Positions 1-2,834 of a stretch of 39,693 nucleotides of DNA are shown one piece after another. Each line of letters opens with the position of its first letter. Positions within the stretch are counted from its first letter, which is position 1. The DNA comes from a virus: UHGV virus genome UHGV-0150678, one strand, 5' to 3'. The position numbers were made by a program.

Positions 1-2834
1 TTATTAATCTGGTGAAGTTTTTCCTCTGTCATTACGTCATGGTCGATTTCAATTTCTATTGATGCTTTCCAGTCGTAATCAATGATGTATTTTTTGATGT
101 TTGACATCTGTTCATATCCTCATAGATAAAAAACTGCCCTCACACTGGAGGGCAAAGAAGATTTCCAATAATCAGAACAAGTCGGCTCCTGTTTAGTTAC
201 GAGCGACATTGCTCACATAGCAGACTCGCAAATCTGCTATAGGTGCTTATTCGCATCGCATGACAACATCAAATTTTTTGAGATTACTTTGTCGCAACAA
301 TCCCTCTTCTACGCGGTCAGCTTTTCTATAATTATCAAATTCGAAATGTTTAATTACTTCTTTCGTTTCTCGCTCTATAACTTCAACGATGTATTTCTTA
401 TTCATTACTCATCACCTATGGCTTTTTTGATAGCTTCGCGAGCCTTATTAACAGCCCCATACCATTCTGGATATGTTGTCGTTGTTCTATTTTCGGCTTG
501 CTTAAGTAATAACTGAAGTGCTTCAAGTAAATCCGGTGCAGCCATAGCTAATCTTCCATTTGCTACGGCCTCTTCTGTTTCTTTACCGGATAGGGCCATT
601 CCCGGGTGTGAAAATAAAATTAAGCCTGCAAATTGGCTTCTCGCCAATTTTTTCCTAGTACCTTTAAATTCCATGTTAGCCTCTGTTGTTTATGCCAAAA
701 GAAGGCCGACTATGCGGCCTGTGATGTTAGATTTACTTTCATTTTTGAACGGCAGCTACAATTATGATGGAATGTACAAAACCACTTTCCAGTTCATAGA
801 AGTGGATGATGGCATAAAATAATCCCACGACTCGTTAGCTACTAACTCTTTATTAACTGTGGTGGCAGCAATTTCGGCACCACCTTTATTATTAAAAATG
901 TCGTTCGAATACTGACATTTTCCATCTGCATGCACATATAAAATATCATATGTCTCTGTATCGTAATCACCACTTATGTCTCTGATAACAATTCCTGGCT
1001 TCAATGATTTAATTTTCTTGTCCATATATCACCTCAAATAAGTGGTTTGCAGCCTAATTTCATTTTCTGGCGACCAACACAAGTCAACCCCATTTCACTA
1101 CGTGGCTTGCTGTACCATGTGCGCTGATTCTTGCGCTCAATACGTTGCAGGTTGCTTTCAATCTGTTCGTGGTATTCAGCCAGCACTGTAAGGTCTATCG
1201 GATTCAGTGCGCTTTCTACTCGTGATTTCGGTTTGCGATTCAGCGAGAGAATAGGGCGGTTAACTGGTTTTGCGCTTACCCCAACCAACAGGGGATTTGC
1301 TGCTTTCCATTGAGCCTGTTTCTCTGCGCGACGTTCGCGGCGGCGTGTTTGTGCATCCATCTGGATTCTCCTGTCAGTTAGCTTTGGTTGTGTGTGGGAG
1401 TCGTAGTCCTGAACGAAAACACCCCGCGATTGGCACATTGGCAGCTAATCCGGATTCGCACTTCCGGCCAATGCTTCGTTTCGTATCACACACACCAAAG
1501 CCTTCTGCTTTGAATGCTACCCTTCTTCAGGGCTTAATTTTTAAGAGCGTCACCTTCATGGTGGTCAGTGCGTCCTGCTGATGTGCTTAGTATCACCGCC
1601 AGTGGTATTTATGTCAACACCGCCAGAGATAATTTATCACCGCAGATGGTTATCTGTATGTTTTTTATATAGATTTATTTTTTGCAGGGTTGTGTGGATT
1701 GGGAAGGTGATCGAGAGATCTGAATTGCGATGTTTAGTGAGTTGTATCTATTAATTTTGAAATAAATACAATTGGTTATGCGTTTTTTGGGGGCGTTAGG
1801 CAAAGAAAACCCGGCGCAGATGCCGGGTTGTGGTGGAGATCAATGCTTATTTGGGAGTGCTGGTTTTTTTATCGACTCTAATAGCTCGGAGGCGTTACTA
1901 ATCTTTTTGTTCCCAAGGTAATTTGGCAGTTTTTCCATTGCGTAATTATCGTGTAGCCATTTTCTGAACACGCCAAGTGCCTCAATAGGATAAATCCAAG
2001 CTGTTATATGCTTATTTGCAGCTGACTGCCTGTAATTTTCGGGGAATAAATGTGGGTACTGCACCCTTTCCCCGAATTTCTCAGATAGCCCATTAGCTGT
2101 CCAATACTTTCCCCAGTGAATTCCAACACTTCCATCCAAAGATGTGGTGTCATCCATTGGGAATCCTCCTCCGATCAGGTTCATGGCAATGTCAGCTATC
2201 TCTCTGAATACTGCAAAATGAGTTGTCGGTATCTGATCGTTTAGCTTAATCCTTGCTCTATAGTTCTCGAATGAGATATCTATTGAAGCATTTGGGTTGT
2301 AATTTGACTTTTCATAAATCATTCGCTTAAGCGTGTACTCAGCCAAGCGAACAAAATTACCTATTGCGACTGACCTATCAAAATTGGTGGCATCTAGAGC
2401 GTAGTAACGGAGGATAGCCATGCAAACATAGTCAGGATAAGCATGAGTTTCCACGTTTGAGCTATTTAAAACGCGAGTGTATAGCTTTTCGACGTTATGA
2501 AACCCTTTCTCAGCTAAATACGCAGCTACTTTTTGACCTCTGGGTTTGTTTTTCTCTGTGTTCCAGTTTGATGTGAACACCCTCAGTGGCGTGTCATCAA
2601 TGCCGCATAACTTTGCGAGACCGTAGAGAGTTAGGTAAGGAGTTCCATCATTGAGAACGCCCATAGGAATATCATCAGAAACAACCTCTACTACAGGGAA
2701 AAGCTGCATTTGATGCAGGGATTCGCTATTGCTGTTAATCGACATATCTTAATGATTTCCTTATTTTTATTGTAGGGATCTTCTTTTTTATTTCCTACAT
2801 CTAGATGCGTATAAAGTCTCTTGCTGCGGACTCA

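What the first reader, a model, noticed from the sequence alone, without database searches (positions are those of the whole stretch)
126..1025. Post-N accessory genes in the ral/sieB slot, with an internal terminator
Directly downstream of N are 87-aa, 89-aa and 52-aa ORFs with no resemblance to lambda ral, sieB or ssb as I recall them. The 52-aa ORF is coupled to the 89-aa gene by a TAATG overlap. A strong terminator (126-155) follows, which N-modified polymerase would read through. Lambdoid phages commonly keep anti-restriction and exclusion genes here, so these are anti-defence or exclusion candidates of unknown family.
Basis: inference. Interest (0 to 1): 0.45.

Follow-up and report, generated by a model that had tools for sequence, protein, structure and literature searches.

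The report
Three small early phage accessory genes
Just after the phage's N antitermination gene sit three real but uncharacterised small genes, in a slot already known to swap accessory genes between lambda-like phages; this is an ordinary example, and what the genes do is unknown.

Summary
On the minus strand, N (1034-1357) is followed by ORFs of 87 aa (762-1025), 89 aa (405-674) and 52 aa (247-405). The last two overlap as TAATG. A hairpin plus T6 terminator lies at 128-155.

All three are real genes. They are conserved at protein level and sit in catalogued families of unknown function: phrog_33140; Pfam PF27050 Phage_P22_Y8K6 with phrog_1273; phrog_6949. None resembles Ral, SieB or any defence model, and neither of the two predicted folds (ORF87, ORF89) has an informative match.

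The terminator is not part of the cassette. Window 1-214 is 98.6% identical to lambda 33798-34011, so it is lambda's own terminator ahead of ea10.

The slot is the 'Ral' accessory region, which Silas et al. ranked second among enterobacteriophage accessory regions. Their 200-gene screen included a 98%-identical ORF52 homologue and a Y8K6 member. Neither is listed among genes with a phenotype.

The genes move as independent mosaic modules. ORF87 always directly follows N and never co-occurs with ral.

Best reading: pL/N-driven early lytic accessory genes, probably binders of host or defence proteins. No promoter suggests expression from the prophage. Function is unproven. Interest is low.

The parts
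1589..1617 (-). pL promoter (TTGACA, 17-nt spacer, GATACT)
   Evidence: 10 of 12 consensus match. Lies in a lambda-like operator region.
1520..1533 (-). nutL boxB (GCCCTGAAGAAGGG)
   Evidence: Exact pattern match; 0 expected by chance. The nutR partner is at 3871-3884(+).
1034..1357 (-). N antiterminator gene (107 aa, lambda type)
   Evidence: Pfam N36 at 1.5e-26 and phrog_271. 94% DNA identity to lambda N.
762..1025 (-). ORF87, identical to WP_001525230.1. Small acidic alpha/beta protein, phrog_33140. First gene after N.
   Evidence: phrog_33140 at 3.4e-51. The exact sequence is listed in 668 index blocks. Found in 8 of 5426 complete E. coli genomes and 24 IMG/VR loci. The close homologues always follow N. 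Distant homologues share 31-36 identical residues, more than half in different codons. AF2 model pLDDT 84.9, with no fold match.
703..720 (-). Terminator-like hairpin (6-bp stem, then UUCUUUUGG) in a conserved intergenic linker. It is the first terminator-like site after pL.
   Evidence: Window 657-742, or parts of it, is conserved next to different upstream genes.
405..674 (-). ORF89, member of Pfam PF27050 Phage_P22_Y8K6 and phrog_1273. Three-strand meander plus helical hairpin, with the invariant motif AAPDLLEAL.
   Evidence: The nucleotide-identical gene in L012 carries PF27050. 81 homologues all carry PF27050. phrog_1273 at 1.4e-16. AF2 pLDDT 83.7. Alignment A1.
630..653 (-). Compensated +1/-1 indel pair inside ORF89. 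Residues 8-14 read KKLARSQ instead of KNWREAN.
   Evidence: Pairwise alignment with L005 and L006. The variant is shared with L008 and L012.
247..405 (-). ORF52, 98% identical to WP_001037043.1 and ATN92755.1. phrog_6949. Translationally coupled to ORF89 by TAATG.
   Evidence: phrog_6949 at 2.4e-39. Purifying selection: 21 synonymous against 6 non-synonymous codons versus the Atlantibacter copy, with differences by codon position 3/3/25. 12 protein clusters, those with a species name being E. coli, Atlantibacter and Cronobacter.
128..155 (-). Intrinsic terminator (8-bp stem at 134-155, T6 at 128-133). Homologous to the lambda terminator just upstream of ea10.
   Evidence: Window 1-214 is 98.6% identical to lambda 33798-34011. 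Window 126-214 is conserved in nearly all related loci.
1..106 (-). 5' end of the ea10/DUF2528 gene, which runs off the window. Conserved backbone flanking the cassette.
   Evidence: Identity to lambda ea10. DUF2528 occupies this position in related loci.

Best explanation
This is a mosaic cassette of three independent, real, small accessory genes. It fills the hypervariable 'Ral' accessory region between N and ea10 in the early-left (pL) operon of a P22-like phage with lambda-type immunity.

Shown:
- The elements lie in this order on the minus strand: pL, nutL, N, ORF87, hairpin 703-720, ORF89 (Y8K6 family), ORF52 (TAATG-coupled), lambda-type terminator 128-155, ea10.
- Each gene has a Shine-Dalgarno sequence.
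- Each is conserved at protein level.
- Each is found elsewhere with different neighbours.

Inferred:
- Transcription comes only from pL, so the genes are expressed in the lytic cycle or on induction, not in the lysogen.
- No terminator-like site separates N from ORF87. ORF87 should therefore be made together with N on the N-independent immediate-early RNA that ends near 703.
- ORF89 and ORF52 need N-modified polymerase to pass that hairpin. The same polymerase then reads through 128-155 into ea10, cIII and kil.

Most likely function, by position only: small soluble proteins that bind and modulate host or host-defence proteins early in infection. ORF87 is an alternative occupant of the exact position that ral takes in other phages. 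I put about 0.9 on the architecture and expression logic, and about 0.35-0.4 on a counter-defence or host-takeover function.
For: Gene reality:
- PHROG matches for all three.
- Substitution patterns for ORF52 indicate purifying selection.
- ORF87 identities with distant homologues are mostly encoded by different codons.
- 81 Y8K6 homologues.
- Confident AF2 models.

Expression logic:
- pL is the only minus-strand promoter-like site in 1-2000.
- boxB of nutL and nutR are present, and N is present.
- The terminator sits in lambda-homologous backbone.

Accessory-slot nature:
- Mosaic breakpoints fall at 214/215, 543, 657, about 742, 1021-1057 and 1114.
- The same slot holds ral, Nmad5, sieB, DUF7446, a 156-aa ORF and others in relatives.
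- 'Ral' accessory regions rank 2nd, 11th and 14th in Silas et al. Supplementary File 2. From that region type, ral is anti-restriction and orf184 triggers gop-beta-cII.

Lytic-cycle role:
- ORF87 relatives sit in virulent Klebsiella Mydovirus KB57 and KpS8, in a cluster of small hypothetical genes in KB57.
- Ral is absent within 3 kb of ORF87-family genes in all 24 IMG/VR loci.
Against: - The proteins are not strongly acidic DNA mimics: pI 4.9, 9.05 and 7.9.
- A near-identical ORF52 and a Y8K6 member gave no reported phenotype in about 20 E. coli hosts with T-phages, lambda and P1.
- The window's ORF89 has lost the near-invariant W10 through a compensated frameshift, so this allele may be impaired.
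- The promoter scan is a crude consensus scan.
- Read-through and immediate-early timing are inferred from lambda, not measured.
- The ORF87/ral mutual exclusion rests on related, non-independent loci.
Confidence: 0.5

Rival explanations
1. The proteins serve the phage's own development (lysis-lysogeny choice, replication, recombination, host-physiology tuning), as their neighbours cIII, Kil and Ea10 may do. They would not counter host defences.
For: They lie in the same operon as cIII, kil, ea10 and RecT. No phenotype was reported in a counter-defence and cell-death screen for the ORF52 and Y8K6 homologues. The Y8K6 family has an invariant AAPDLLEAL motif, which suggests one conserved partner rather than fast-evolving defence targets.
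Against: Presence is sporadic: the pair occurs in 182 and ORF87 in 8 of 5426 E. coli genomes. Free replacement by unrelated genes argues against a core developmental role. ORF87 relatives also occur in virulent myophages, which have no lysogeny.
Confidence: 0.25
2. They are prophage-expressed superinfection-exclusion or defence genes, like SieB, RexAB or BstA, that protect the lysogen.
For: The slot holds sieB in lambda, P22 and L008-L010. This phage already carries a BstA homologue next to cI, so the region is a defence hotspot.
Against: There is no minus-strand promoter-like site within 1-1030. The genes have the pL orientation, unlike sieB, which is convergent to N. The terminator at 1808-1829 isolates them from cI/BstA transcripts. 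PADLOC gives no hit. There are no transmembrane or nuclease-like features, and the proteins are hydrophilic and very small. Relatives occur in virulent phages.
Confidence: 0.1
3. ORF89 and ORF52 form an obligate two-component unit, such as a toxin-antitoxin pair or a heterodimer. The TAATG overlap would fix their stoichiometry.
For: The stop/start overlap is conserved: TAATG in L008 and L009, TGATG in L017. The pair co-occurs in 182 E. coli genomes and in mEp043, mEp213 and APC_JM3.2.
Against: Partners are exchangeable. ORF52 follows an unrelated 53-aa Cys-rich ORF in Cronobacter (L015). A Y8K6 gene is followed by an unrelated 62-aa ORF in L009 and L010. There is no own promoter and no TA or defence model hit. 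Y8K6 relatives outnumber ORF52 relatives: 81 against 12 clusters.
Confidence: 0.07
4. The ORFs are non-functional filler: chance or decaying reading frames between conserved recombination linkers.
For: ORF89 in this window carries a frameshifted stretch that removes a near-invariant tryptophan. ORF87 is frameshifted in one degenerate prophage, L007. No function has been found.
Against: ORF52 shows clear purifying selection. ORF87 is conserved at protein level down to 31-47% identity, across Klebsiella phages and several prophage lineages. The second indel in ORF89 restores the frame. AF2 models are confident. All three have good Shine-Dalgarno sequences.
Confidence: 0.04

Closest known systems
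The 'Ral' accessory region of lambdoid and P22-like phages (Silas et al., bioRxiv 10.1101/2023.04.06.535777). Lambda itself has N - sieB(antisense) - orf28 - ral - ea10.
   Same: Same location: between N and ea10/cIII in the pL operon. Same conserved flanks and the same kind of content: 50-100-aa genes that differ between otherwise related phages. That paper's library includes the ORF52 homologue of APC_JM3.2 and a Y8K6 member.
   Different: This phage lacks ral, orf28 and sieB. ORF87 was not found in the paper's supplementary files. No function is known for any of the three genes, whereas ral is an anti-type-I-restriction factor.
Pfam PF27050 Phage_P22_Y8K6, RefSeq 'XkdD/Y8K6 family phage-associated protein', phrog_1273
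   Same: ORF89 matches the family. It has the invariant AAPDLLEAL core, the MEFKGT N-terminus and the KA[LI]G[DE]E C-terminus.
   Different: This allele is the short 89-aa form, with a replaced N-terminal half compared with the 98-aa mEp043 and APC_JM3.2 proteins. It also has a compensated frameshift that removes W10. The family has no known function.
mEp043 gp45/gp46, mEp213 and APC_JM3.2 gp49/gp50 (the closest sequenced phages carrying the pair)
   Same: ORF52 is 98% identical. The TAATG-coupled Y8K6 + ORF52 arrangement after N is the same, and so is the downstream terminator linker.
   Different: Those phages carry other genes between N and the pair (a 51-aa ORF, or Nmad5/'Smchd1'). None of them carries ORF87.
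Lambda terminator upstream of ea10 (tL2 cluster, 'tL2a'; name recalled from Luk & Szybalski 1983, not checked here)
   Same: Sequence-homologous: 98.6% over window 1-214. Same position relative to ea10, same hairpin and T-run.
   Different: One stem base differs: U-A here against a G-U wobble in lambda. The name and the measured efficiency could not be verified in the paper library.
Klebsiella Mydovirus KB57 gp201 and KpS8 homologue
   Same: The only viral relatives of ORF87 outside lambdoid prophages: 42% identity by tblastn. The predicted fold is the same, TM 0.78-0.82.
   Different: The host phage is virulent, with a 143-kb genome. The gene lies among small hypothetical genes and not behind an N gene.

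Membership tests
Pfam PF27050 Phage_P22_Y8K6 (ORF89) | Significant match to the family HMM | tested here: met
   The gene in L012 is nucleotide-identical to ORF89 and carries an unmarked (E <= 1e-5) PF27050 hit. All 81 homologues carry it. The local Pfam copy lacks this model, so the direct scan was empty.
Pfam PF27050 Phage_P22_Y8K6 (ORF89) | Conserved core motif (N/D)A.L.AAAPDLLEAL and the near-invariant N-terminal T6/W10 | tested here: inconclusive
   The AAPDLLEAL core and T6 are present. W10 is replaced by L because of a compensated frameshift.
Ral antirestriction family (PF11058) | Sequence similarity to lambda Ral, including its Cys-rich N-terminal part | tested here: not met
   No Pfam hit for any of the three ORFs. 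BLASTP of ORF87 against Ral gives no alignment. ORF87 and ORF52 have one Cys each and ORF89 none.
SieB superinfection exclusion (PF14163) | Protein of about 180-190 aa, convergent to N, matching the SieB HMM | tested here: not met
   No hit. No ORF of that size lies in 126-1025. sieB is present at this place in L008-L010 and L012 but absent here.
Phage accessory region in the sense of Silas et al. | Variable set of short genes bounded by conserved genes in related phages | tested here: met
   The flanks N and 126-214/ea10 are conserved, while the content differs in more than 10 related loci. The 'Ral' AR is listed in their Supplementary File 2.
Known anti-phage defence systems (PADLOC-DB 2.0) | Match to any defence-protein model | tested here: not met
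   0 families at E <= 1 for the three ORFs. The BstA homologue at 1840-2745 matched at 1.3e-105 in the same call.
Type II toxin-antitoxin module (ORF89 + ORF52) | Own promoter, fixed cognate pair, recognisable toxin or antitoxin fold | tested here: not met
   No promoter-like site. Partners are exchangeable. No family hits. Toxicity was not testable.
Intrinsic (Rho-independent) terminator | G+C-rich hairpin directly followed by a U-run on the transcribed strand | tested here: met
   134-155(-): 8 bp, -12.7 kcal/mol, U6. Termination efficiency and N-dependent read-through are not testable with these tools.
Counter-defence (anti-restriction / anti-Abi) protein | Demonstrated relief of a defence system, or binding to one | not testable with these tools
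   Positional evidence only. In the published screen, the ORF52 and Y8K6 homologues are not among the genes with a reported phenotype.

The most novel reading that the evidence does not exclude
ORF87 is a new-fold, immediate-early counter-defence protein. It would be a functional replacement for Ral, or an inhibitor of some other host immunity system. It is co-transcribed with N before antitermination, and it is shared between temperate lambdoid phages and virulent Klebsiella myophages.
Probability: 0.2. Interest if true: 0.5.

Novelty: new member of a known kind. Interest (0 to 1): 0.25.

Why it matters
If ORF87, ORF89 or ORF52 proved to be counter-defence factors, they would add small proteins to the anti-immunity repertoire of lambdoid phages; ORF87 and ORF89 have no recognisable fold. 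ORF87's position, fused to the N transcript, would show how such factors are given the earliest possible expression. As it stands, the locus is one more instance of a well-known hypervariable slot filled with catalogued hypothetical proteins. Its practical value is as a short list of candidates for a screen. ORF87 comes first, because it has not been tested and is phylogenetically the most unusual.

Tried and rejected
- Family scans of the three proteins against Pfam, NCBIfam and PADLOC gave only sub-threshold noise (DACNH, FlaG, ACP).
- PDB sequence searches, with single sequences and with profiles, found nothing below E = 0.08.
- BFVD Foldseek for ORF87 found only the KB57 homologue. The afdb50 library was unavailable.
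- The exhaustive phmmer search for ORF87 returned long proteins with many matched stretches (P0101, P0107-P0109). Those inspected are translations of tandem-repeat DNA and were rejected as artefacts.
- Rfam found nothing in 1-2000.
- Paper searches for XkdD, Y8K6, PF27050, PHROG ids, protein accessions and tL2a found nothing relevant.
- A first DNA alignment for the ORF89 N-terminus used wrong locus coordinates and was redone.
- The DNA-mimic idea was rejected on charge.
- The TA-pair idea was rejected on partner exchange.
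Full report
**What is there**

The left end of the window is the start of the leftward early operon of a lambdoid phage, read on the minus strand.
- A lambda-type cI lies at 2832-3545, followed by a 301-aa BstA homologue at 1840-2745 with a terminator at 1808-1829.
- pL is at 1617-1589 (10 of 12 consensus positions) and nutL boxB at 1520-1533.
- N is at 1034-1357 (Pfam N36 1.5e-26).
- Then come ORF87 (762-1025), ORF89 (405-674) and ORF52 (247-405).
- A hairpin plus T6 terminator follows at 128-155.
- The ea10/DUF2528 gene starts at 106 and runs off the window.

ORF87 starts 8 nt after the N stop, behind GAGGTGAT. ORF89 follows AGAGG. The ORF89 stop and the ORF52 start overlap as TAATG. 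By its gene content the window as a whole looks like a complete P22-like genome (portal, integrase, RecT) with lambda-type immunity.

**The terminator belongs to the backbone**

- Window 1-214 is 98.6% identical to lambda 33798-34011. The hairpin is lambda's own terminator just upstream of ea10.
- From memory this is tL2a of the tL2 cluster. I could not verify the name in the paper library.
- Window 126-214 is kept in nearly every related locus, whatever lies upstream of it.
- The foreign cassette is therefore about 215-1020.
- A second, weaker hairpin at 703-720 (-9.7 kcal/mol, followed by UUCUUUUGG) lies between ORF87 and ORF89 in another conserved linker. It is the first terminator-like site after pL.

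**Are the ORFs genes?**

Yes.
- ORF52 compared with the Atlantibacter copy (79.7% DNA identity) shows 21 synonymous against 6 non-synonymous codon changes, with differences by codon position 3/3/25. The Cronobacter copy gives 19 against 9, and 5/5/25.
- ORF87 has small homologues at 31-47% identity in other prophage lineages and in virulent Klebsiella Mydovirus phages. Of 31-36 identical residues, more than half use different codons.
- ORF89 has 81 homologous clusters.
- AlphaFold2 models are confident for ORF89 (pLDDT 83.7: three-strand meander plus helical hairpin) and for ORF87 (pLDDT 84.9: alpha/beta).

**What families?**

- All three match PHROGs of unknown function: phrog_33140 at 3.4e-51, phrog_1273 at 1.4e-16 and phrog_6949 at 2.4e-39.
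- ORF89 belongs to the recent Pfam family PF27050 Phage_P22_Y8K6 (with nucleotide identity to L012 shown). RefSeq names WP_078208888.1, which differs from ORF89 only at residues 9-14, 'XkdD/Y8K6 family phage-associated protein'.
- The family has an invariant AAPDLLEAL motif, a variable N-terminal half and a conserved KA[LI]G[DE]E tail.
- None of the three resembles Ral or SieB.
- The pI values are 4.9, 9.05 and 7.9, so they are not Ocr-like DNA mimics.

**Distribution and mosaicism**

- The ORF89 + ORF52 pair occurs in 182 of 5426 complete E. coli genomes and in phages mEp043, mEp213 and APC_JM3.2. It always lies after N, with ral, Nmad5, another gene or nothing in between.
- ORF87 is identical to WP_001525230.1. 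It is rarer, at 8 of 5426 genomes, but its exact sequence is listed in 668 blocks of the assembly index. An ORF87-family gene occurs in 24 IMG/VR contigs.
- Close ORF87 copies always follow an N gene on the same strand. What follows them varies: DUF7446, Y8K6 + ORF52, a 156-aa ORF, or ea10 directly.
- Ral was never found within 3 kb of an ORF87-family gene in the 24 IMG/VR loci. No complete RefSeq E. coli genome has all three genes together.
- The window's arrangement recurs at 99.2% identity in L008, L012 and L026. There an antisense sieB and a fossil 3' end of lambda-type N precede ORF87.
- Breakpoints fall at 214/215, 543, 657, about 742, 1021-1057 and 1114. One pair of them lies inside ORF89.
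- The partners of the coupled pair are exchangeable. ORF52 follows an unrelated Cys-rich 53-aa ORF in Cronobacter that nevertheless ends in KAIGEEE. A Y8K6 gene is followed by an unrelated 62-aa ORF in L009. So the TAATG junction is a conserved joint plus Shine-Dalgarno sequence, not proof of a two-protein machine.

**Literature**

- Silas et al. (bioRxiv 10.1101/2023.04.06.535777) scored accessory regions in enterobacteriophages. 'Ral' regions rank 2nd, 11th and 14th.
- Their 200-gene library contains UDP0149, which is ATN92755.1 of APC_JM3.2 and 98% identical to ORF52. It also contains UDP0123, a Y8K6-family protein (hhalign probability 98.6%).
- The genes they report with phenotypes are orf1, 2, 7, 24, 48, 63, 87 (ral), 92, 98, 116, 126, 143, 145, 148, 169 and 184. 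Neither UDP0149 nor UDP0123 is among them.
- orf184, from the same region type in mEp213, triggers gop-beta-cII.
- ORF87's sequence was not found in the paper's supplementary files.
- No paper mentions these accessions or families.

**How it most likely works**

- Shown: the order of the elements, the ribosome-binding sites, the translational coupling, and the absence of any minus-strand promoter-like site within the cassette.
- Inferred from lambda biology: the genes are silent in the lysogen and are transcribed from pL on infection or induction.
- ORF87 is not separated from N by any terminator-like site. It should therefore be on the N-independent immediate-early RNA, which would stop partly at 703-720.
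- N-modified polymerase then reads through that hairpin into ORF89 and ORF52, and through 128-155 into ea10, cIII and kil.
- For function I commit to small soluble binders of host or host-defence proteins, at about 0.35-0.4. The grounds are the slot, the early timing, the sporadic and exchangeable distribution, the presence of ORF87 relatives in virulent phages, and ORF87 occupying ral's place without ever co-occurring with it.
- Rivals: a role in phage development or physiology (0.25), prophage-expressed exclusion (0.1), an obligate ORF89-ORF52 pair or TA module (0.07), and non-functional filler (0.04).

**Oddity in this allele**

Compared with WP_078208888.1, ORF89 here has A6 instead of A5 at 648-653 and T3 instead of T4 at 630-632 on the coding strand. 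Residues 8-14 therefore read KKLARSQ instead of KNWREAN, and the near-invariant W10 is lost. L008 and L012 share this variant. It is therefore not a private sequencing error, and the second indel restores the frame.

**Verdict**

This is an ordinary filling of a known hypervariable accessory slot with catalogued hypothetical proteins. It is a new member of a known kind, and interest is low (0.25). ORF87 is the only part worth an experiment.

Noticed in passing
window 1840-2745 (-), terminator 1808-1829 (-): A 301-aa BstA abortive-infection homologue sits between cI and pL, where lambda has rexAB. It matches phrog_6287 at 6e-133 and PADLOC BstA at 1.3e-105, and has its own terminator. Relatives L013 and EC28 carry a similar 303-aa P63C-domain protein at the same place, together with ORF87.
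   Followed up: partly
window 630-653 (-), inside ORF89: A compensated +1/-1 homopolymer indel pair re-reads 7 codons and removes the near-invariant Trp10 of the Y8K6 family. It is shared with L008 and L012.
   Followed up: yes
L008/L012 5912-6000; L026 2909-2989: A fossil 3' end (about 27 codons) of a lambda-type N gene persists between an antisense sieB and ORF87, in phages whose working N is of the other (N_peptide, 90-aa) type. It suggests that ORF87 travels with the end of lambda-type N.
   Followed up: partly
L015 3839-4162; L017 3765-4162; L009 6355-6839: Unrelated genes upstream of ORF52 all end in KA[LI]GE[EA] right at the stop/start junction: a Cys-rich 53-aa ORF, a 78-aa Y8K6-like protein, and the 89/98-aa Y8K6 proteins. 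The junction is better conserved as protein and Shine-Dalgarno sequence than as DNA.
   Followed up: partly
window 543-657 (-): A mosaic breakpoint pair lies inside ORF89. The N-terminal beta-meander part is unrelated to that of the 98-aa mEp043 and APC_JM3.2 proteins, while both flanks are 89-95% identical.
   Followed up: partly
L002 3239-3862; L004 3524-4147: In APC_JM3.2 and in some E. coli prophages, the position taken here by ORF87 holds a 207-aa 'Nmad5 family putative nucleotide modification protein', annotated Smchd1 in the phage record.
   Followed up: no
window 3871-3884 (+) and 1520-1533 (-): Both boxB elements (nutR GAAAA loop, nutL GAAGA loop) are intact. In nutL the closing pair would be G-U rather than G-C.
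   Followed up: no
proteins P0101, P0107-P0109: The representative-protein library holds long 'proteins' that gave multi-stretch hits to ORF87. Those inspected are translations of tandem-repeat DNA. These hits are artefacts, not homologues.
   Followed up: yes
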